A stretch of 64,000 bases of DNA from Candidatus Amesbacteria bacterium RIFCSPLOWO2_01_FULL_48_25 (GTDB lineage: Bacteria > Patescibacteriota > Microgenomatia > CAZETR01 > Amesbacteraceae), in NCBI GenBank assembly GCA_001773695.1, contig MEXN01000005.1, positions 67,687 to 131,686 on the forward strand, written 5' to 3'. The notes under the pieces were generated by a model. The model searched no databases. It had not been told where the DNA came from and saw only the letters and a list, made by a program, of their open reading frames with translations. A program made the position numbers and the translations under genes. Below are positions 9,076-58,493 of this stretch, one piece after another; position 1 is the first letter of the stretch, and every line of letters starts with the position of its first letter.

Positions 9076-9261
9076 ATGGCGACAGTGGTACACAAAAAAC
9101 CCGGCCAATCAGATGACAAACTTATCGCTGACTTTCGTAAGAAAGTCCTTAATGATGAGTTGATTTTGGAGATCAAAAAGCGGGAATTTTATCGTAAGCC
9201 GTCGGTATTAAAGCAAGAGAGAATTAAAGAGCGCAGAAAAACGCGACGGAGGAGTTATTAG
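9076..9261 (+). CDS. rpsU: 30S ribosomal protein S21
   Basis: 61-aa basic protein with the S21-typical KKREFYRKPS and an Arg-rich tail. Confidence 0.8.
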   Translation: MATVVHKKPGQSDDKLIADFRKKVLNDELILEIKKREFYRKPSVLKQERIKERRKTRRRSY

Positions 9262-9996: not shown

Positions 9997-11385
9997 ATGT
10001 GGCCTATGACTTTGTATTTGAAATACCGGCCCCAAACTGTTCCTGAATTGGATTTGAAGGCTGTTCGGGAGTCCTTGGGAAAAACTCTTTCTAACAAAGA
10101 CCTGCCTGCCGGCAGGCAGAGTTTGCCACATGCGTGGCTGTTTTCGGGTCCGAGAGGCGTTGGAAAGACGAGTGCAGCTAGGGTGCTGGCTAAATACATT
10201 AATTGTCGGGGGAAGGAGAAGCCATGTAATAAGTGTGATTTATGTTTGGGGATTACGGCAGGGGCGTGTCCGGACGTAGTTGAGATTGATGCGGCCAGTA
10301 ACCGGGGTATAGATGAGATTAGGCAGTTGCGTGAAGGGGTGGGCTTGGCGCCCATGCAGGCTAAATTTAAGGTTTATATTATCGACGAGGTGCATATGTT
10401 GACGTCGGAGGCGGCTAATGCTTTGCTGAAAACATTGGAGGAGCCGCCGCCACATGTGATGTTTGTGCTGTGCACGACAGAGGCGGAGAAGTTGCCGGAG
10501 ACTGTGATCAGCCGATGTACGAGGGTGGTATTTTCTAAGCCTAGCCTAGAGGAGATTGTGGAGAAGCTGAAAAGAGTGGCGGGCGAGGAGAAATTGAAAG
10601 TTGATCATGGACAACTGATATTGATAGCTAAGGCGGCGAGGGGGAGTTTCAGGGATGCCATAAAAATGCTGGAACAGGTGATGCTGGGGGGAAAGTTGGA
10701 TGAAATAGAAGGGGCGGGGGAGTTTTTGGAGATGGGGACTGATGAGGCGCTTGCTTATGTCAATAAGCTGGCAGAGAGAGGAGTGAATTTGCGGACTTTT
10801 GTGGAAAAGTGTGTTGAGGAGCTGCGGGAGAAATTGCTGGAGACGAAGGATGTGAGTTTGATTTCTAAAATTGAGGAGTTGGAGAGAGCGTATGGGAGAA
10901 TGAAAGATGCGGCGGTGCCGCAATTGCCTTTAGAAATATTTGTGATTGAAAGGGCGGGAGAGTCTAAGAGTATAAGAGCTGGAGGGGAAAAGAAGAGTGA
11001 AGGACCAACAATAAAGAAACAAGAACCTGTGGTGGGTGGGAATTTGGGGGGGCATATGCTAGATGATGTGTTGTCACATTGGCCGGAGGTGATGAAGGCG
11101 GTTCGGCCAAAAAATCATTCGGTGGAAGCGCTCCTTCGTTCTACCAAACCTGTCGGGTTTGACGGGCGGGATTTGATTTTGGAGGCTTTTTACGAGTTTC
11201 ATAAAAAGCAGTTGGAGACTGAAAGGTGCCGAGTGATTGTAGAGCAGACGGTGAGTGAGGTATTGGGGGTGGATGTGGTGGCATTGAAGATGCAGCTGGG
11301 GCATGGTTCAACGGTTGCGAAGGCCACCGGCGGAGACGGAGGAGAGGAGTTAGTCAAGGCGGCAGAAGAAATATTTAAACGATGA
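9997..11385 (+). CDS. dnaX: DNA polymerase III subunit gamma/tau
   Basis: Walker A GPRGVGKTS, the zinc module CNKCDLC, and DEVHML...ALLKTLEEPP. Contains the in-frame 18-bp palindrome at 10102-10119, which encodes LPAGRQ. Confidence 0.9.
   Translation: MWPMTLYLKYRPQTVPELDLKAVRESLGKTLSNKDLPAGRQSLPHAWLFSGPRGVGKTSAARVLAKYINCRGKEKPCNKCDLCLGITAGACPDVVEIDAASNRGIDEIRQLREGVGLAPMQAKFKVYIIDEVHMLTSEAANALLKTLEEPPPHVMFVLCTTEAEKLPETVISRCTRVVFSKPSLEEIVEKLKRVAGEEKLKVDHGQLILIAKAARGSFRDAIKMLEQVMLGGKLDEIEGAGEFLEMGTDEALAYVNKLAERGVNLRTFVEKCVEELREKLLETKDVSLISKIEELERAYGRMKDAAVPQLPLEIFVIERAGESKSIRAGGEKKSEGPTIKKQEPVVGGNLGGHMLDDVLSHWPEVMKAVRPKNHSVEALLRSTKPVGFDGRDLILEAFYEFHKKQLETERCRVIVEQTVSEVLGVDVVALKMQLGHGSTVAKATGGDGGEELVKAAEEIFKR
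10102..10119. repeat. Perfect 18-bp palindrome CTGCCTGCCGGCAGGCAG (type A element), in-frame within dnaX
   Basis: Self-complementary. The same core with its 3' flank (..GCAGRRTTTGCC) recurs at 45150-45169. Confidence 0.8.
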
Positions 11386-12014
11386 CCAAGCCACAAACCC
11401 GCCTGCCGGACGGGCAGGTCTCAAGCCACAAATTAATTTTATTGATTGCATACTTGCTAATATTGAGTGTTCCTGGGGTGACGTGGGTGAAAAACTCTGG
11501 GTGGAGTGGTGGGGTGGTTTACGGGTTGGCAAGGCTGGCCGGGTTGTATGCGTTTACCTTGATGACGCTTCAAGTGGGAATCGGGGGGCTGGCGGATAAA
11601 TTGAGGCCGATTTTTGGAGCCAGAATAATCAGATGGCATATATGGCAGGGAACAGTGGCTTTTAGTTTGGCAATGTTGCATCCGGTACTTATGGCTGTCG
11701 TGTTTGGGGTGGGAGAAGTTCTGCGAATGGGCGGGGACGCGGTGTGGGGGAAAATAGCCTTAAATCTTTTAATTATTTCTGTTTTGGCCGGAGCGATGCG
11801 GGCTCAGCCGTGGCTGGTCAGGTATTGGCGGTGGGTACACCGGCTAAATTATGTCATATTGGCGATGGTGTGGTGGCATTCGTGGAGACTAGGGACGGAT
11901 ACTCATACCTGGCCGATGGCGGGAATTTATTTACTGGCGCCGGTGGTTTTGGTTTGGGCTTTGACAAACAAGCTATTGGAGTCTAGAATCCTGAGTAAGT
12001 ATGGGTATCGGTGA
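11382..12014 (+). CDS. Hypothetical polytopic membrane protein
   Basis: Several hydrophobic helices. Its 5' end is occupied by the type B hairpin element, so the real start may lie downstream of 11432. Confidence 0.5.
   Translation: MTKPQTRLPDGQVSSHKLILLIAYLLILSVPGVTWVKNSGWSGGVVYGLARLAGLYAFTLMTLQVGIGGLADKLRPIFGARIIRWHIWQGTVAFSLAMLHPVLMAVVFGVGEVLRMGGDAVWGKIALNLLIISVLAGAMRAQPWLVRYWRWVHRLNYVILAMVWWHSWRLGTDTHTWPMAGIYLLAPVVLVWALTNKLLESRILSKYGYR
11398..11418. repeat. Type B hairpin element CCCGCCTGCCGGACGGGCAGG, flanked by 11-bp direct repeats CAAGCCACAAA (11387-11397 and 11422-11432)
   Basis: The 21-mer recurs at 29849-29869 with one change (A to T in the loop). Direct repeats on both sides were read from the sequence. 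Confidence 0.8.
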
Positions 12015-28059: not shown

Positions 28060-29025
28060 CTATTTGAAGAGAGTGAGGGAGGAAATTTGGGCGGTGACGA
28101 AGGCGACGTAAAGAGTGATCAAAACGATGCCTTCAAGATATGAAAGACGGTTTTTGGAATGGGTGAAGACCAAAAAAAGCACTAATGAGAAAACCATAAA
28201 GATGGCGGAGATCTCGATTTGTATTTGGGAATTGACGACGAAAGGGGAGAAAATTGCTAAAAGTGAGATGATGAAGGTGTTGGCGGCGGCGCTGCCTAAA
28301 ATGTCACCGATGACCAGATTGGTATGACGGCCGCGGATGGCGGCGATGGCGACTGAGATTTCGGGAATATTGGTGCCCAGTGACAAAAACAGAGTACCAA
28401 TGACGAGAGGGGGGATGCGGAGGAGGGTGGCCAGGCGGAGGGAGGAAAAAAGGACAGCGCGGGAAGACAAAACTACTCCAATGAGCCCTACCAGAGTGAG
28501 AAATACTGTGTTTAGAAATTTTTGGTTGAGCAAATTTTCGTCGAGAGGCGGAGAATCCGGCGGACGAAGTTTGTAGACGTATAGCAAATAGCCAATATAG
28601 AGCAAGATTAGAAATACACCGTCTAGTCGGGTAAGGCGGGAATCAAGAAGAAGAATAAGGGGGGAGAGAATGAGAACGGCAATATGCAGTATTCGGTCGG
28701 GATGGGCCAGTTCGTCGCGAATAATAGCATTGGGATGAAAGACGGCGGTGCCGCCAGCGATAAGGGACAGAAGAACAATGGTGGCGCCAAAGAGATTGCC
28801 CAGAGAAAGTTGGGGGTTTCCAGAAAGAATGGAATTAACTGCGATTCCGGTTTCGGGGATGGAAGTGGCGATGCCTAAAATAATAAATCCGGTAAGGAAT
28901 TGGGAGAGGCGGAGAAAGACTCCCAGACGGGAGACTGCGGTAACTAGATAGCCTGCAGTTTTGCCTAAAATTATGAGGCCAATTAGACAGGTGAAGAAAT
29001 AAAAGAGCAGGTGGACAGGGACCAT
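28060..29025 (-). CDS. Ca2+/cation antiporter (CaCA family, YrbG-like)
   Basis: Two alpha-repeat motifs, GNLFGATI and GDILGSAAANTF, in a 10-TM protein. Confidence 0.75.
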   Translation of the reverse strand: MVPVHLLFYFFTCLIGLIILGKTAGYLVTAVSRLGVFLRLSQFLTGFIILGIATSIPETGIAVNSILSGNPQLSLGNLFGATIVLLSLIAGGTAVFHPNAIIRDELAHPDRILHIAVLILSPLILLLDSRLTRLDGVFLILLYIGYLLYVYKLRPPDSPPLDENLLNQKFLNTVFLTLVGLIGVVLSSRAVLFSSLRLATLLRIPPLVIGTLFLSLGTNIPEISVAIAAIRGRHTNLVIGDILGSAAANTFIISLLAIFSPFVVNSQIQIEISAIFMVFSLVLFLVFTHSKNRLSYLEGIVLITLYVAFVTAQISSLTLFK

Positions 29026-29044
29026 TTAATATAATGTAACAGAT

Positions 29045-30076
29045 ATGACGGGGTTTTGGAAAAGTTTGTCGCGGCCATTTTGGGCAATGGCGCCAATGGA
29101 AGATGTGACGGATACGGTTTTTAGAAGAATCGTGGCCAGTGTGGGGAAGCCGGATGTGTGTTTTACGGAGTTTACGAATGTAGATGCGATAGTGTATGCA
29201 GTTCGGAATGCGCAAAAGTCTGTCCTCGAACTACCGGTCTCACTGCGTTCGCCGGGATCGCTGCGGGCGGATTTTGCTAGCATTCCTGCACTGCAGAGAT
29301 TGTATTTCTCTGAATCAGAGAGGCCGATTGTGGCTCAGATTTGGGGGACGGATCCTCAAAAGTTTTATGAGGCCTCCAAAATTATAAAAAAACTCGGGTT
29401 TGACGGGATAGACATAAATTTCGGCTGTCCGGTTAGAGACGTGGTCAAAATCGGCGCTTGTTCGGCGATGATAGGAAAAAATTCGCAGGTGGCTGAAATA
29501 ATTGCGGCTGTGAAAGAAGGAAGTAAGTTGCCGGTGAGTATCAAGACCAGGATTGGATTTAAAGCGATAGTTACCGAGGAGTGGATTGGATTTTTGTTGG
29601 GGCAAGGGCTAGCGGCGATTACGGTTCATGGGAGGACGGCAGTCGAGCTCAGCTCGGTGCCGGCGCATTGGGAGGAGATTGGGAAGGCGGTCAGTTTAAG
29701 AGATCAGTCTGAGTCTGAGACTTTGATAGTTGGTAATGGAGATGTGAAGAGTCTGGAGGAGGCAAGAGAGAAGGTTCGTGAATATGGAGTGGATGGGGTG
29801 ATGATAGGAAGGGGGGTTTTGGAGAATCCCGCGATTTTTAATTCTAAACCCGCCTGCCGGTCGGGCAGGTTTTTAATTTTAAATCGAACTCAAAAGTTGA
29901 AATTATTGAATCAGCACTTAAAACTTTGGGAAGAGACGTGGGGGGAACACAAAAATTTTGCGGCGTTTAAAAAATATGTAAAAGTTTATGTCAGGGATTT
30001 TGAGGGAGCGGGGGAATTACGGGCGAGGCTAATGAATGCGGCGAGCTATAGTGATTTGAGGCAGATTCTGGGGTAA
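29045..30076 (+). CDS. dusB: tRNA-dihydrouridine synthase (DusB-like)
   Basis: APMEDVTDTVFRRI at the N-terminus, a TIM-barrel flavin-binding region, and the catalytic Cys region (INFGCP). Contains the in-frame type B hairpin at 29849-29869. Confidence 0.85.
   Translation: MTGFWKSLSRPFWAMAPMEDVTDTVFRRIVASVGKPDVCFTEFTNVDAIVYAVRNAQKSVLELPVSLRSPGSLRADFASIPALQRLYFSESERPIVAQIWGTDPQKFYEASKIIKKLGFDGIDINFGCPVRDVVKIGACSAMIGKNSQVAEIIAAVKEGSKLPVSIKTRIGFKAIVTEEWIGFLLGQGLAAITVHGRTAVELSSVPAHWEEIGKAVSLRDQSESETLIVGNGDVKSLEEAREKVREYGVDGVMIGRGVLENPAIFNSKPACRSGRFLILNRTQKLKLLNQHLKLWEETWGEHKNFAAFKKYVKVYVRDFEGAGELRARLMNAASYSDLRQILG
29849..29869. repeat. Type B hairpin element CCCGCCTGCCGGTCGGGCAGG inside dusB, flanked by 14-bp direct repeats TTTTTAATT(C/T)TAAA (29835-29848 and 29870-29883)
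   Basis: Second copy of the 21-mer found at 11398-11418. Both copies are bracketed by direct repeats, and this one is in-frame (encodes PACRSGR). Confidence 0.8.
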
Positions 30077-30087
30077 AATGGGCTTGG

Positions 30088-30576
30088 ATGTTGCAAAAGA
30101 AAACGGTAGTAAAGGCGGAATCTGCAAGACGGGAGTTTGCCAAGCGATTGATGGCTGTCGTTATTGGGACTTGGGTGTGGGAAATGGGTTTAGAGAAGCA
30201 AGGGAAGAAATGGCAGGAAGCGGGTAGGGTGCTTGATGAAATGTTGGCAGAGGCAAAGAAACGAGGTTATGAGGAATTGGTGGAGAAACGGAGAGGGAAG
30301 TTGGTGCCGGCTGGATGGTTATACGATCAGGTGGAAGAGATGATAGAGGAATTTGAGGACGACATGTTTTGGGAAAGATTGGAGACGGATTTGGCCCATC
30401 GGGATTTGGAGGAAAATCATGGAGAGGACTTGAAGAAAATGGGTGATGAGAAAAAAGCCGACTTGCACGATCGGTATCACGAGAAATGGGCTCAGGAGTT
30501 TGAAAAAAATGGACTGAAAAGGCTGGATATAATAGACAACGTTCCCTCGGTTAGGACGGGAAGAGTGAGGAATTAA
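30088..30576 (+). CDS. Hypothetical acidic protein
   Basis: 162-aa ORF, charged and helical, no motif recognised. Confidence 0.4.
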   Translation: MLQKKTVVKAESARREFAKRLMAVVIGTWVWEMGLEKQGKKWQEAGRVLDEMLAEAKKRGYEELVEKRRGKLVPAGWLYDQVEEMIEEFEDDMFWERLETDLAHRDLEENHGEDLKKMGDEKKADLHDRYHEKWAQEFEKNGLKRLDIIDNVPSVRTGRVRN

Positions 30577-30627
30577 ATATGGGTGATTCTTGCATAGCAG
30601 TAATATTTATTGTATGACTGAGCGAGA

Positions 30628-31755
30628 GTGAAAATGTCGAAGAAGTTGTTTCTGCTGGTACTGATTTTCTCTTTGGCGGTGTTTCTGACAGCTTCGCGTA
30701 GTTCTAAAGCGGAAGTAACGTTGACGAGTTTTGGCTCTTTGGTATTACCGGAGACTTCTGCTTGGGTTAACCTGGGAATTGCAATTTCCGAAGGGGCGGA
30801 AGGGGAGTGGGACAGGTATCTGTGGGGAGGATTTGCAGAGAGTCTGGTTAAAAAGCATGGGGTTTACTATTTGTATTATCAGGGTTCGTCCTCATTTAGC
30901 GATACATGCAACGATAATACGTATAGACAAATCGGGGTAGCGACATCGACGGACGGGATCAATTGGACGAAATATGCCGGTAATCCGGTGATAACTTGGA
31001 CGGATCAGGGAGCAGTGACGGAGGGGGCAGTCAGTTCGGGGGCAGTTTTGGGAGCAGATGGGAATATATACCTCTATTATGGGGCGAATAGCGCTTATGA
31101 TCAGTGTTTGGTGCATGCTGCCGGAAGGCTGGCCCAAAGTAGTGACGGTATTAATTTTACTGACGTAGGTGAGGTTATTCACAATGCGTCTCCGTTGTGG
31201 GGCTTCGGCGATGAGATTTTTCCGGTAGGGGTTTATGAAAACGGAGGCAGTTGGAATGTGTTTTATATTCCAAATGGGGTAAGCAAATATGCGAATAAAA
31301 AGTTGGGTGTTATTACCGGATCGAGCTTGACAGGATTGGACCCAAATCAGAGCAGGGGAGTAAATGGCGGGTTGCCGGCTTGGGGTCCAGTTTCGATTGT
31401 AAGTGATAGTTCGGCGGCTTATGCATTTGTAAATGACCCAGCGACAAATCGTCCCGTGAAGGTTTACTCGTTTGCCCCTGGCTTTCCTTCTAGTATGACT
31501 TTGCGGAAGACATATGTATTCTCTGATTGTATGCAAGCGTCAGTGTTGTATGAACCGGAGATGAGCAGGTGGCTAATGCTGTGCAGAGACGTGCCCGATA
31601 ATGCTTTTTATAGGGTAAAGGTTGCCCCGGTAGTGTTTGCCACTCCCAGTCCGACGGGAGGTCCGGTTCCGACCATAGGTCCCAGCTCAACTTCTTCTCC
31701 AAAATCCACGCCACCATCAAGCTCCCCGACACCCTGGCCTACAGGGACTAAATAG
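30628..31755 (+). CDS. Secreted five-bladed beta-propeller glycoside hydrolase-like protein (GH43/GH32/GH130-type fold)
   Basis: Signal peptide, then repeated blade motifs (GVYYLYYQGS, GVATSTDGINWTKYAGNPVI, GNIYLYYGAN), and a Ser/Pro/Thr-rich C-terminal tail. Confidence 0.5.
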   Translation: MKMSKKLFLLVLIFSLAVFLTASRSSKAEVTLTSFGSLVLPETSAWVNLGIAISEGAEGEWDRYLWGGFAESLVKKHGVYYLYYQGSSSFSDTCNDNTYRQIGVATSTDGINWTKYAGNPVITWTDQGAVTEGAVSSGAVLGADGNIYLYYGANSAYDQCLVHAAGRLAQSSDGINFTDVGEVIHNASPLWGFGDEIFPVGVYENGGSWNVFYIPNGVSKYANKKLGVITGSSLTGLDPNQSRGVNGGLPAWGPVSIVSDSSAAYAFVNDPATNRPVKVYSFAPGFPSSMTLRKTYVFSDCMQASVLYEPEMSRWLMLCRDVPDNAFYRVKVAPVVFATPSPTGGPVPTIGPSSTSSPKSTPPSSSPTPWPTGTK

Positions 31756-45039: not shown

Positions 45040-45684
45040 TCAAGGAGATTGTACCAGATGGATCAGGCGGGCAGTAAGGGTATTGGCCGTGGCGCTTTCG
45101 GTACCCACGACGACAATTTTGGAGTTTACTTTGACGTCGGAAGCTTTGGCCTGCCTGCCGGCAGGCAGGATTTGCCCAGTGTATTTGGTGGCGGAAGTGA
45201 GTTTTATGGTCAGGGTCTGGTTTTTGTTATCGGTTACAGTGAGTTGGGAAGTCGTAACTTTAGTGATGTTTGTGAAGATGGCGCGGCGTTTGTCCGCCCG
45301 GGGAGTGGGAACGACCAGGAGGCGTTTGGCGGTCAGTTTGCCTTCGGCGTCGGCGTCACCCATTGCCAAAACGGTAGTGCCTTCTTTGAGGTCTGCAATG
45401 GTGCCGTCCTTACCACCGGTTAACTTGATGATTGAGTCGGTGGTGACGGTTATGGTTCTGGTAGCGTTGCCTGTGGTAGTCAGGGTGAGGGTGGCGTCGG
45501 ACTTGGAAGAGATAGTACCCAGGTAGGCACGTTTGGAAATTGCCTGTTTAATGAGGTTTAGCTCCTCGTCAACTTTCTTTTTGATGGAGTCACGGATGCC
45601 GCTGTCGGTGGCGGTTGGGGATTGGGCAGCAATTAGAGCAGGAGAGTTTAAGAGTAGGAGAGCTAGAGCCAGGAGAGTTTTCAT
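45040..45684 (-). CDS. Hypothetical secreted beta-rich protein
   Basis: Signal peptide MKTLLALALLLLNSPALIAAQ. Thr-rich repeats. Contains the in-frame type A palindrome, which encodes LPAGRQ. Confidence 0.5.
   Translation of the reverse strand: MKTLLALALLLLNSPALIAAQSPTATDSGIRDSIKKKVDEELNLIKQAISKRAYLGTISSKSDATLTLTTTGNATRTITVTTDSIIKLTGGKDGTIADLKEGTTVLAMGDADAEGKLTAKRLLVVPTPRADKRRAIFTNITKVTTSQLTVTDNKNQTLTIKLTSATKYTGQILPAGRQAKASDVKVNSKIVVVGTESATANTLTARLIHLVQSP
45150..45169. repeat. Perfect 20-bp palindrome CCTGCCTGCCGGCAGGCAGG (type A element) inside a secreted-protein gene
   Basis: Same core and 3' flank as 10102-10119. Confidence 0.8.
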
Positions 45685-57530: not shown

Positions 57531-58493
57531 ATGAATGACGAGGTTCCCCAGAAGTCAAAAGTGAGATTACCCTACTTTGATGAATTCCTCTTATTTCTCA
57601 AGACCCAAAACTATTCCGAAGAAACTTTGTATAACTACGAGGCGGATTTAAAACAGCTGGAACATTTTTTAGAAGAAGAAGAAATTGACTTTCTAGCCTT
57701 GAATAAAGAAAAGGTTAACCATTATAAGGCGTATCTGGTCAGCCGGGAGCGAAAACAGCCGTTTACGGGGCTTACAGCGGGTCGTAAGCTTGAAGCGAGA
57801 TCGGTAAATCGCAACTTATCGACCTTTAGGACTTATTTGCGATATCTCATCGATATGGATCGGAAGGTTCCGGTGCCGCCGGATGCAGTAAAGTTGGTGA
57901 AGACAGATAAGAAACACCCGCAAGTGGCGGAGCTGGCTGAACTAATTTCTCTTATCGAAAGTCCGATGCGGCTTGAGAAAGATCAATTGATTGGGATTCG
58001 CAATCGGGCGATGCTCGAAGTTTTGTTATCCACCGGGATGCGAATTTCGGAACTGGTGTCACTTAATAAAAACCAGCTAGATGGTACGGGTAGATTGTTT
58101 ATCCGCGGTAAGGGACGCAAAGAGAGGTTTGTTTATTTGACCGACAGGGCGGTGTATTGGCTGAACCAATACTTAACCCGAAGGGTGGATCCGGCGCCGG
58201 CGATGTTTGTGCCGTACCGGGGGAATAATGCTGGCAAAATGATTAGGCGGATTTCCACCAATTACTTACAAGCGAAAATTAAGGAGTACAGGGAGAAACT
58301 AAGGATAAATGTACCAACCTCGGCTCATTCGTTGAGACATGGGTTTGCAACTTATCTGGCGGAAAGTGGTGCAAACCCGGCGGCAATACAGGTATTGTTG
58401 GGTCACGAATCTTTGGATACTACAACTCGTTATGTCCATGCGTCGGATAAATTTGCTGAAGAGACGCACCGAAAATTTCATCCGGTAAAATAG
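57531..58493 (+). CDS. xerC: Tyrosine site-specific recombinase (XerC/XerD family)
   Basis: Catalytic residues in context: R in RNRAMLEVLLSTGMRISEL, HSLRHGFAT, and LLGHESLDTTTRYVH, which contains the catalytic Tyr. Confidence 0.8.
   Translation: MNDEVPQKSKVRLPYFDEFLLFLKTQNYSEETLYNYEADLKQLEHFLEEEEIDFLALNKEKVNHYKAYLVSRERKQPFTGLTAGRKLEARSVNRNLSTFRTYLRYLIDMDRKVPVPPDAVKLVKTDKKHPQVAELAELISLIESPMRLEKDQLIGIRNRAMLEVLLSTGMRISELVSLNKNQLDGTGRLFIRGKGRKERFVYLTDRAVYWLNQYLTRRVDPAPAMFVPYRGNNAGKMIRRISTNYLQAKIKEYREKLRINVPTSAHSLRHGFATYLAESGANPAAIQVLLGHESLDTTTRYVHASDKFAEETHRKFHPVK

What the first reader, a model, noticed from the sequence alone, without database searches (positions are those of the whole stretch)
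29835..29883. The same 21-bp hairpin element inserted in-frame inside the tRNA-dihydrouridine synthase gene, with 14-bp flanking direct repeats and a terminator-like shape
CCCGCCTGCCGGTCGGGCAGG is bracketed by TTTTTAATTCTAAA and TTTTTAATTTTAAA. The hairpin followed by a T5 run looks like an intrinsic terminator, yet it sits inside the Dus coding sequence (it encodes ...NSKPACRSGRFLILN...) and the ORF continues for a further 60 codons of plausible Dus C-terminal domain. It could be an insertion with target duplication, or it could attenuate transcription inside the gene.
Basis: partly seen in the sequence, partly recalled or inferred. Interest (0 to 1): 0.55.

Follow-up and report, generated by a model that had tools for sequence, protein, structure and literature searches.

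The report
Tiny mobile hairpin inside dus gene
The 21-base hairpin in the tRNA-dihydrouridine synthase gene is a precise in-frame insertion of a tiny, stop-codon-free palindromic element whose exact sequence recurs in genomes of many bacterial phyla and in phages, apparently an undescribed kind of miniature mobile DNA.

Summary
CCCGCCTGCCGGTCGGGCAGG lies at 29849-29869 inside a 343-aa Dus ORF, flanked by TTTTTAATTCTAAA and TTTTTAATTTTAAA. The closest orthologues lack exactly these 21 bp (7 codons, PACRSGR), so it is a clean in-frame insertion in the linker between the two Dus domains.

The 14-bp repeats are not a duplication made by the insertion. Element-free orthologues already carry both copies, and a 35-bp insertion would break the frame.

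The element belongs to a family. A second copy sits at 11398, and 21-nt relatives sit in dnaX (10101) and at 45150. The exact 21-mer occurs in at least 120 genome stretches across many phyla, including cultured Bacteroidota, and in phage contigs at up to 10 copies per 14 kb. About one match is expected by chance.

Filled/empty comparisons show 21-bp insertions without target duplication where the alignment is unambiguous. Insertion sites are enriched in hairpin loops, in the element's own loop, and at the centre of 7/14-nt-phased direct repeats.

The terminator-like shape (hairpin plus T5) is real, but the T-run predates the insertion and the family shows no T-tail enrichment.

The mobilising machinery is unknown. 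Single-strand hairpin transposition is my best guess. No prior description was found.

The parts
29849..29869 (+). Element E (T-centre variant), CCCGCCTGCCGGTCGGGCAGG. A 21-bp in-frame insertion encoding PACRSGR.
   Evidence: Exact 21-column gap in L001 and L002 in the DNA alignment; 7-aa gap in the protein alignment; all full-length members of the >=90% identity cluster that were read keep it.
29853..29869 (+). Hairpin core: stem CCTGCC/GGCAGG with 5-nt loop GGTCG. The 5' CCCG (29849-29852) stays unpaired.
   Evidence: RNA fold -11.1 kcal/mol for the 21-mer alone and -13.5 kcal/mol in context.
29835..29848 (+). Left 14-mer TTTTTAATTCTAAA (codons ..IFNSK). Pre-existing target sequence.
   Evidence: Present and identical in the empty alleles L001, L002 and L188.
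29870..29883 (+). Right 14-mer TTTTTAATTTTAAA (codons FLILN). Pre-existing target sequence. Its T5 (29870-29874) supplies the terminator-like tail.
   Evidence: The empty alleles have TTTTTAACTTTAAA at this place; terminator-like pattern match.
29045..30076 (+). dus gene (tRNA-dihydrouridine synthase) hosting the insertion in the linker between the TIM barrel and the C-terminal helical domain.
   Evidence: Pfam PF01207. Alignment to 1VHN places the insert after ..RGxxxxPxIF; the 1VHN linker is naturally longer.
11398..11418 (+). Second copy of E (A-centre, the common form). An in-frame insertion (TRLPDGQ) at codons 6-12 of a ferric-reductase-like membrane protein gene, just after the dnaX stop.
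   Evidence: Orthologue P0243 lacks exactly these 7 residues; its empty site in L146 is ATGACCAGGCCACAAA|TCCCAAACCCCAAA.
11384..11432 (+). Flanks of copy 2: GACCAAGCCACAAA and TCTCAAGCCACAAA (11/14 identical, same 14-nt register as at dus).
   Evidence: A weaker version (9/14) exists in the empty site of L146.
10101..10121 (+). Related 21-nt palindromic element (type B), CCTGCCTGCCGGCAGGCAGAG, inserted in frame in dnaX (LPAGRQS).
   Evidence: About 40 aligned orthologues lack the 7 residues; three distant ones (P0132, P0133, P0150) have an insert at the same site. The empty site in L143/L145 is AAAGA|TTTGCC.
45150..45170 (.). Type B palindrome CCTGCCTGCCGGCAGGCAGG(A) inside a DUF5666-like gene on the minus strand (reads LPAGRQA). 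Also directly 5' of TTTGCC.
   Evidence: No orthologue comparison was done for this copy.

Best explanation
The 21 bp at 29849-29869 are one copy of a very small, non-autonomous mobile DNA element, called E here, with consensus CCCGCCTGCCGG[A>>T]CGGGCAGG.

What is shown:
- E was inserted precisely, as exactly 21 bp with no target-site duplication, into the inter-domain linker of dus.
- E is three-codon-phased (7 codons) and has no stop codon in any of the six frames, so the ORF stays intact across it.
- The 14-bp flanking repeats belong to the target. They are present in element-free orthologues.
- E and its 21-nt relative B recur as exact copies in many phyla and in phages.
- They are polymorphic between related genes as clean 21-bp indels.
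- They nest inside one another.
- They are enriched in DNA hairpin loops, typically with 5 loop nucleotides on the 5' side and abutting the 3' arm.
- They are enriched at the centre of direct repeats phased at 7 or 14 nt.

What is inferred:
- E is simply translated, giving Dus seven extra residues (PACRSGR).
- Mobilisation is in trans and acts on single-stranded, structure-forming DNA such as hairpin loops or slipped repeats at replication forks. The most likely agent is an HUH/Y1-type or similar single-strand transposase, as proposed for REP elements. My confidence in that particular machinery is only about 0.3.
- The copy in dus is a tolerated, essentially neutral passenger.
- Its terminator-like shape is an accident of landing in front of a pre-existing T-run. 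It could still cause some premature termination.
For: **Precise 21-bp insert.**
- dus versus L001/L002.
- Membrane-protein gene versus L146.
- dnaX type B versus L143/L145.
- The phage sheath paralogues L140 and L141 differ at six E positions. Two are clean 21-bp indels without duplication.

**Not chance and not local.**
About one match is expected for 20 specified bases in 2 x 596 Gb (my arithmetic).
- Hits include cultured Flavivirga, Flavobacterium, Mucilaginibacter, Aequorivita, Maribacter and Zunongwangia, many candidate-phyla-radiation (CPR) lineages, Planctomycetota, Nitrospirota, Omnitrophota, Elusimicrobia and others, and long-read assemblies.
- E occurs in 20 viral stretches and B in 35, against 0 for a reversed-sequence control.
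- Up to 10 copies lie in 14 kb inside phage terminase, tape-measure and sheath genes.

**Insertion-site anatomy.**
- Flank preferences are limited to position -1 (purine), +1 (G or T) and +2 (A).
- A flanking perfect stem of at least 7 bp occurs at 12.3% of sites versus 0.9% of controls. The commonest geometry is 5 nt on the left and 0 nt on the right of E.
- Copies nest in E's own loop and in B.
- Flank self-similarity occurs only at periods 7 and 14: 5.5% vs 0.27%, and 5.5% vs 0.02%. It is absent at periods 10-12, 15 and 17-20.

**Translated and under protein-level selection.**
- 67% of copies lie in long ORFs.
- The two Cys-containing frames are the rarest (9 and 2 of 87).

**Tolerated site.** The linker varies in length among Dus proteins and is longer in 1VHN.
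Against: - No mobilising enzyme was identified. There is no transposase or HUH Pfam hit in the 40 largest window ORFs or in the E-dense phage contigs.
- The flanks show no conserved 4-5-nt target motif, which IS200/IS605-type elements would have.
- E has a single hairpin, not two ends.
- The exact 14-nt extent of flank similarity on each side looks like a target duplication. In one orthologue pair the two 14-mers co-vary. The simple pre-existing-target reading does not explain this.
- No allele more than 90% identical to the window gene lacks E, so the insertion is not demonstrably recent.
- Translation of the insert and any effect on transcription were not measured.
Confidence: 0.72

Rival explanations
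1. Classical transposon-like insertion with a 14-bp target-site duplication (35 bp added). Element-free alleles with both 14-mers would then be excision footprints.
For: Flank similarity extends 14 nt on each side of E and peaks exactly at the junction. Period 14 is enriched about 270-fold over control junctions across the family, and period 7 about 20-fold. B copies show perfect 7-, 8- and 14-nt flanking repeats. In the L150/L152 orthologue pair the two 14-mers co-vary, as if regenerated independently.
Against: Filled and empty alleles differ by exactly 21 bp at dus and at the membrane-protein gene, and both 14-mers are in the empty alleles. Neither +35 nor a +14 footprint keeps the reading frame, yet the downstream domain is conserved in frame and the linker length is normal. 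The same frame argument holds for E in Tgt, DHFR and methyltransferase genes. Tandem heptamer arrays continue in phase across E. The clean phage sites have no duplication.
Confidence: 0.1
2. The hairpin is a selected regulatory device: an intragenic intrinsic terminator or attenuator that truncates dus transcripts or limits read-through into the downstream gene.
For: A GC-rich stem of 6-7 pairs followed by TTTTTAATTTT is listed first among the terminator-like matches in 28500-31000. The empty allele has no structure at all (0 kcal/mol).
Against: The T-run predates the insertion. Family-wide, T-rich tails after E are no more frequent than at control positions (7.3% vs 7.4%). E occurs in both orientations and mostly inside ORFs, including phage structural genes. 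A translating ribosome would normally suppress such a hairpin (established knowledge). The ORF continues intact for about 70 conserved codons.
Confidence: 0.1
3. No dedicated enzyme exists. The 21-mer spreads by replication template switching or short-patch recombination between dispersed repeats (heptamer arrays, small hairpin families, other E/B copies), followed by ordinary homologous recombination between strains.
For: E is often embedded in other repeat families whose flanks resemble each other across loci, for example ccgccNNNggcg|E|gatccgccNNNggcgg, and the Flavivirga loci L014, L061 and L097. The link to slippage-prone 7/14-nt repeats and hairpins fits replication-error hot spots. The same dnaX and dus linker sites are occupied in distant orthologues.
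Against: Many sites, especially the roughly 30 in the phage contigs, have unique flanks with no repeats. Identity of the 21-mer across phyla and bursts of identical copies point to an active, sequence-specific process. Template switching would need microhomology at both junctions, which was not seen.
Confidence: 0.15
4. Assembly or sequencing artefact, or a native lineage-specific coding segment unrelated to mobile DNA.
For: The length of 21 equals a common smallest k-mer size in assemblers. The insert is in frame and has no stop codon.
Against: Identical protein sequences with the insert come from independent NCBI, JGI, ENA and Logan assemblies. E is present in isolate genomes and long-read assemblies. 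The identical 21-mer in over 100 unrelated genomic contexts excludes a private coding origin.
Confidence: 0.02

Closest known systems
REP / BIME elements (GTAG- and CGTC-tagged repetitive extragenic palindromes, thought to be mobilised by RAYT Y1 transposases; PMC3733652)
   Same: Short (20-40 bp) imperfect palindrome with an unpaired 5' tetranucleotide. Multi-copy. No encoded protein. Some REPs lie inside ORFs, notably replication and repair genes, and some sit inside other small palindromes (PMC3733652).
   Different: E has no GTAG or CGTC terminal tag (its 5' end is CCCG). Its stem is 6 GC pairs, not the 8-9 bp AT-starting stem of CGTC REPs. Most copies are intragenic rather than mainly extragenic. 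The same exact sequence occurs across many phyla, not in one species or genus. No RAYT gene was seen nearby.
Rickettsia palindromic elements (RPE; Ogata et al. 2000, from my own knowledge; mentioned in PMC3733652 and PMC1779305)
   Same: Palindromic selfish DNA inserted in frame into functional protein-coding genes and translated as extra peptide segments in tolerated surface regions.
   Different: RPEs are about 100-150 bp and confined to Rickettsia. E is 21 bp and found across bacteria and in phages.
Mitochondrial GC clusters, repetitive hairpin-forming elements and 'byp' elements (PMC4478555, PMC2800124; Lang et al. 2014 from my own knowledge)
   Same: GC-rich palindromic mini-elements. They are sporadically present or absent, insert in coding and non-coding DNA, merge and nest with one another, and have no known mobilising mechanism.
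   Different: They are organellar, 30-60 bp and flanked by 2-3-nt duplications (AG/ACT). E is bacterial or phage, 21 bp, has no duplication, and is kept in frame rather than bypassed.
MITEs (PMC10969869)
   Same: Non-autonomous, multi-copy, hairpin-forming, and able to sit in or next to genes.
   Different: MITEs are 50-500 bp with terminal inverted repeats matching a parent IS, and they make fixed-length target duplications. E meets neither criterion.
IS200/IS605-type and other HUH single-strand transposition (own knowledge)
   Same: Hairpin-based recognition, insertion without target duplication, and action on single-stranded DNA would fit the loop preference.
   Different: Those elements need two different hairpin ends and insert 3' of a fixed tetra- or pentanucleotide. 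E has one hairpin and only a one-base purine preference at -1.
Rho-independent terminator
   Same: A GC-rich stem-loop immediately followed by a T-run.
   Different: It lies about 200 nt before the dus stop codon, inside a translated region. The T-run is older than the hairpin. The family as a whole has no T-tail bias.

Membership tests
REP/BIME (RAYT-associated) | 20-40 bp imperfect palindrome present in many copies | tested here: met
   21 bp, 6-bp stem plus 5-nt loop. Two E and two B copies in 64 kb. Up to 10 copies per 14 kb elsewhere.
REP/BIME (RAYT-associated) | Conserved terminal GTAG or CGTC tetranucleotide | tested here: not met
   The 5' end is CCCG and the 3' end is CAGG. CGTC occurs only internally on the minus strand of the A-centre form and is lost in the dus copy.
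REP/BIME (RAYT-associated) | Predominantly extragenic location | tested here: not met
   67% of copies lie in stop-to-stop ORFs of at least 120 codons, against 86% for random positions, so E is only mildly depleted in ORFs.
REP/BIME (RAYT-associated) | Cognate RAYT (Y1 transposase) gene in the genome | not testable with these tools
   None among the 40 largest window ORFs or in the E-dense phage contigs. The rest of the genome was not available.
MITE | Terminal inverted repeats plus fixed-length target-site duplication; 50-500 bp | tested here: not met
   E is 21 bp. Filled/empty pairs differ by exactly 21 bp, with both flank copies present in the empty alleles.
Rickettsia palindromic elements | In-frame insertion of a palindromic repeat in functional ORFs | tested here: met
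   dus, dnaX and membrane-protein gene.
Rickettsia palindromic elements | About 100-150 bp consensus; Rickettsia lineage | tested here: not met
   21 bp; host is Candidatus Amesbacteria, plus many other phyla.
Intrinsic terminator | GC-rich hairpin followed by a U-tract | tested here: met
   Pattern match at 29852-29870 plus TTTTTAATTT.
Intrinsic terminator | Causes transcript 3' ends; sits at the end of a transcription unit | not testable with these tools
   It lies inside the ORF, 207 nt before the stop. No transcript data. No family-wide T-tail bias.
IS200/IS605-like (HUH) elements | Insertion without target duplication | tested here: met
IS200/IS605-like (HUH) elements | Fixed 4-5-nt target immediately 5' of the insertion; distinct left and right hairpin ends | tested here: not met
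   Only position -1 (A/G), +1 (G/T) and +2 (A) carry information. E has a single hairpin.
Casposon/Cas1-type integration | 14-15-bp target-site duplication generated on insertion | tested here: not met
   A 14-nt flank repeat is present, but it is already there in the empty alleles and is incompatible with the reading frame.

The most novel reading that the evidence does not exclude
E and its relative B define a previously undescribed family of 21-nt, stop-free, codon-phased hairpin 'nano-elements', spread across bacterial phyla and phages. They would be the smallest mobile DNA units known. They insert without target duplication at the junction between loop and 3' arm of DNA hairpins, including tRNA-gene loops and their own loop, and at the centre of 7/14-nt-phased direct repeats. 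This would imply a widespread, still unknown single-strand insertion machinery. It may also involve a process that homogenises 14 nt on either side of the insertion point without changing length.
Probability: 0.4. Interest if true: 0.85.

Novelty: new variant of a known kind. Interest (0 to 1): 0.68.

Why it matters
If correct, a single 21-nt sequence is moving through genomes as different as candidate-phyla-radiation (CPR) bacteria, Bacteroidota, Planctomycetota and tailed phages. It adds seven-residue loops to housekeeping proteins (Dus, DnaX, Tgt, DHFR) and to phage structural proteins.

- It would be a minimal model for how selfish DNA stays harmless: length divisible by three, no stop codon in any frame, and a Pro/Ala/Gly/Arg-rich translation.
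- It would be a source of protein indel variation in reduced genomes.
- It would confound gene calling, terminator prediction and alignment.
- The strict 7/14-nt phasing of flank similarity and the polarity within hairpin loops are concrete signatures. They make the unknown insertion mechanism testable in cultured E-bearing Bacteroidota.

Tried and rejected
- **Target-site duplication of 14 bp.** Rejected from the empty alleles and the reading frame.
- **tRNA disruption as a general theme.** L013 turned out to be only a hairpin, and L045 is a tRNA-like 5' half next to a GIY-YIG-like ORF. ARAGORN finds no tRNA at either site. B copies in tRNA-like sequences (L183, L176) were noted but not pursued.
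- **A larger conserved 'master' element around E.** Flank similarity across phyla ends after about 15 nt.
- **A mobilising gene.** No transposase or HUH family appeared in the phage contigs or the window. Only an XerC/D-like integrase was found, at 57531-58490.
- **Rfam.** No family other than one tRNA was found in the window.
- **Literature.** Exact DNA strings and the encoded peptides gave no relevant paper. Keyword searches returned only REP, RPE, MITE and mitochondrial GC-cluster work.
- **A near-identical empty allele in metagenomes.** The scan found only the L001-type allele and an unrelated AT-rich intergenic match.
- **Terminator function for the family.** There is no T-tail enrichment.
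- **Related phages lacking E.** The viral scan found only a paralogue in the same genome. That paralogue nevertheless gave the filled/empty comparison.

Full report
**1. The observation**

The window reads TTTTTAATTCTAAA (29835-29848), CCCGCCTGCCGGTCGGGCAGG (29849-29869), TTTTTAATTTTAAA (29870-29883), as reported.
- The segment lies in ORF 29045..30076 (+), 343 aa. That ORF is a tRNA-dihydrouridine synthase (Pfam PF01207, E=3.5e-56).
- A second copy with a central A is at 11398-11418. Among 100 dinucleotide-preserving shuffles of the window, none had a match within three mismatches.
- Two closely related palindromes, CCTGCCTGCCGGCAGGCAG(G/A), lie at 10101 and 45150. I call the 21-mer E and the related form B.
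- E folds as a 6-bp GC stem with a 5-nt loop and an unpaired 5' CCCG (-11.1 kcal/mol alone, -13.5 in context).
- Together with the following T5, E is listed first among nine terminator-like matches in 28500-31000.

**2. It is a clean 21-bp in-frame insertion**

The organism is a Candidatus Amesbacteria, a member of the candidate phyla radiation (CPR) (source names).
- In an alignment of 28 Dus proteins, only the window protein has PACRSGR. The two closest orthologues read ..NPAIFNSK-------FLTLNQTQK...
- Their DNA (L001, L002) is collinear with the window except for a gap of exactly the 21 bp of E.
- All full-length members of the >=90% identity cluster that were read, from independent assemblies, keep the insert.
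- Alignment to the solved Thermotoga Dus (1VHN) places the insert just after the last barrel motif (..RGxxxxPxIF), in the linker to the helical domain. That linker is naturally longer in 1VHN and varies among orthologues.

**3. The 14-bp repeats are not a target duplication**

- The element-free alleles already read ...TTTTTAATTCTAAA|TTTTTAACTTTAAA... (12/14 identical).
- A 35-bp insertion, or a 14-bp footprint, would shift the frame. Yet the downstream ~70 codons are conserved in frame and the linker length is ordinary.
- The second E copy behaves the same way. It is flanked by GACCAAGCCACAAA / TCTCAAGCCACAAA.
- Orthologue P0243 lacks exactly TRLPDGQ. Its empty site, ATGACCAGGCCACAAA|TCCCAAACCCCAAA, already shows the repeat in weaker form (9/14).
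- A third case lies at the same dus linker in another clade. P0017 (L150) has a degenerate E-like 21-mer in a different frame, flanked by CAATGCTCAAAAC / CAATGCTCAATAC.
- Its E-less relative P0018 (L152) has CAATGCGCAGCCC-g-CAACGCTCAGCCC.
- In whole-gene scans the linker junction is the top or near-top period-14 self-match in all four genes. An orthologue without the repeat peaks at 8/14.

So the repeat is real and non-random, but it is a property of the site. How it arises is unresolved. In the L150/L152 pair the two 14-mers even co-vary.

**4. E is a dispersed, widespread element**

By my arithmetic, about one match is expected by chance for 20 fixed bases in 2 x 596 Gb.
- The central base is A in 115 copies and T in 11.
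- Hosts include nine or more cultured Bacteroidota, Ignavibacteriota and Chlorobi, about ten CPR lineages, Planctomycetota (including anammox bacteria), Nitrospirota, Omnitrophota and Elusimicrobia.
- They also include Margulisbacteria, Marinimicrobia, Acidobacteriota, Chloroflexota, Synergistales and others, and megabase-scale long-read contigs.
- In viral contigs, E occurs in 20 stretches and B in 35. A reversed-sequence control gave none.
- One termite-gut genome has phage regions with up to 10 copies per 14 kb, inside terminase, tape-measure, portal and sheath genes.

**5. Evidence of mobility and insertion-site anatomy**

- Two paralogous phage sheath genes (about 70% identical) differ at six E positions. 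The unambiguous ones are exact 21-bp indels with no duplication.
- One further copy has lost its central base. It coincides with a split ORF, so a 20-nt version is a frameshift.
- E is found inside other E copies (after GCCG|GAC) and in the centre of B.
- Flank composition is informative only at -1 (A/G; T 4%), +1 (G/T) and +2 (A). The two main classes are A|T and CG|GA.
- 12.3% of sites are flanked by a perfect inverted repeat of at least 7 bp, against 0.9% of control junctions. The typical geometry has five loop nucleotides between the 5' arm and E and none between E and the 3' arm.
- Flank self-similarity is enriched only at periods 7 (5.5% vs 0.27%) and 14 (5.5% vs 0.02%). It is absent at periods 10-12, 15 and 17-20.
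- Heptamer arrays continue in phase across E. B shows the same 7/14-nt flank repeats.
- E and B also occur in tRNA-like sequences at loop positions.

**6. Coding behaviour**

- E has no stop codon in any frame and is seven codons long.
- 67% of copies lie in long ORFs, against 86% of random positions.
- All six frames are used, but the two Cys-containing readings are the rarest. This suggests that the inserts are translated and filtered at the protein level.
- In the window, B adds LPAGRQS to DnaX. About 40 aligned orthologues lack it, while three distant ones carry an insert at the same codon. The empty site is AAAGA|TTTGCC.

**7. Function**

- The T-run that gives the dus copy its terminator look predates the insertion.
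- T-rich tails are not enriched after E in general (7.3% vs 7.4%).
- I therefore regard the terminator shape as incidental. Some premature termination cannot be excluded without transcript data.

**8. Mechanism**

The data show precise, duplication-free insertion with a preference for structure-forming DNA. They do not show the machinery.
- No transposase or HUH gene was found in the window or in the E-dense phage regions.
- My best guess, at about 0.3, is trans-mobilisation on single-stranded DNA by an HUH/Y1-like enzyme, as proposed for REPs.
- An enzyme-free replication or recombination route is the main alternative.

**9. Comparison with known elements**

- REPs are the nearest kind. They too can sit in ORFs and inside small palindromes (PMC3733652). 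E, however, lacks the GTAG/CGTC tag and the stem architecture, is mostly intragenic, and is identical across phyla.
- RPEs share the in-frame habit but are five times longer and restricted to Rickettsia.
- Mitochondrial GC clusters share the nesting, the sporadic distribution and the unknown mechanism. They make 2-3-nt duplications (PMC4478555).
- Searches of the paper library for the DNA strings and the encoded peptides found no description.

**Verdict**

The insertion reading is correct, the target-duplication reading is wrong, and attenuation is untested and unlikely to be the point. The finding opens onto a widespread, apparently undescribed family of 21-nt mobile hairpins.

Noticed in passing
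window 29192-29272: The same dus gene has a second in-frame insert of 81 bp (VYAVRNAQKSVLELPVSLRSPGSLRAD) that L001 lacks. Other orthologues carry unrelated inserts at the same position. Examples are a B palindrome nested in another hairpin (L151) and a CCCCCTCC..GGAGGGGG palindrome (L150).
   Followed up: partly
window 10101-10121 and 45150-45170: Two 21-nt type-B palindromes are inserted in frame in dnaX (LPAGRQS) and in a DUF5666-like gene (LPAGRQA). Both lie directly 5' of TTTGCC. The dnaX site is also occupied in three distant orthologues.
   Followed up: partly
window 11382-12014: A ferric-reductase-like membrane protein gene sits between dnaX and ybaB. Relatives L143-L145 have dnaX followed directly by ybaB and recR.
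   Followed up: no
L002 1019-1882: This Dus gene is a mosaic. Its 5' and 3' parts are identical to L001, its middle part is identical to the window, and it has a 75-bp deletion. It is either an assembly chimera or a recombinant between co-occurring strains.
   Followed up: no
L141 about 9090-9110 (compared with L140 6959-9733): A 20-nt variant of E, with the central A missing, coincides with the point where the phage sheath gene is split into two ORFs. This could be a frameshift, a sequencing error in the hairpin, or programmed frameshifting.
   Followed up: no
L045 4547-4610; L183 around 515-534; L176 and L123: E or B sits inside tRNA-like sequences. E follows GTAGCTCAGATGGTAGA (D arm). B follows GGTAGCTCAGTTGGTA. 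B precedes TCGCCGGTTCGAATCCGG (before the T arm). ARAGORN does not call a tRNA at the L045 site.
   Followed up: partly
L117 4582-5395: Three E copies lie in one ORF, at equivalent positions of a repeated protein motif (..Y[DN]|ARLPDGQ|GK..).
   Followed up: no
L150 501-1517: A 33-nt stretch of the dus linker (with the E-like insert removed) is a 32/33 copy of a segment about 96 nt upstream in the same gene (NAQNAMLNAQE). That upstream segment also has a 14-nt-period internal repeat.
   Followed up: no
L187 1391-1418: The emptied dus site sequence ATTTTTAATTCTAAATTTTTAATTTTAAATC occurs in an AT-rich intergenic region upstream of a gene in an unrelated metagenomic contig, within a run of similar 14-16-nt repeats.
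   Followed up: partly
L010, L054, L062, L066, L073, L083 and others: E recurs across phyla between two copies of another small GC hairpin, (T)CCGCC-NNN-GGCG(G). This suggests a set of small hairpin modules that associate with one another.
   Followed up: partly
window 57531-58490: An XerC/D-like tyrosine recombinase is the only recombinase-type gene found among the 40 largest ORFs of the window.
   Followed up: no
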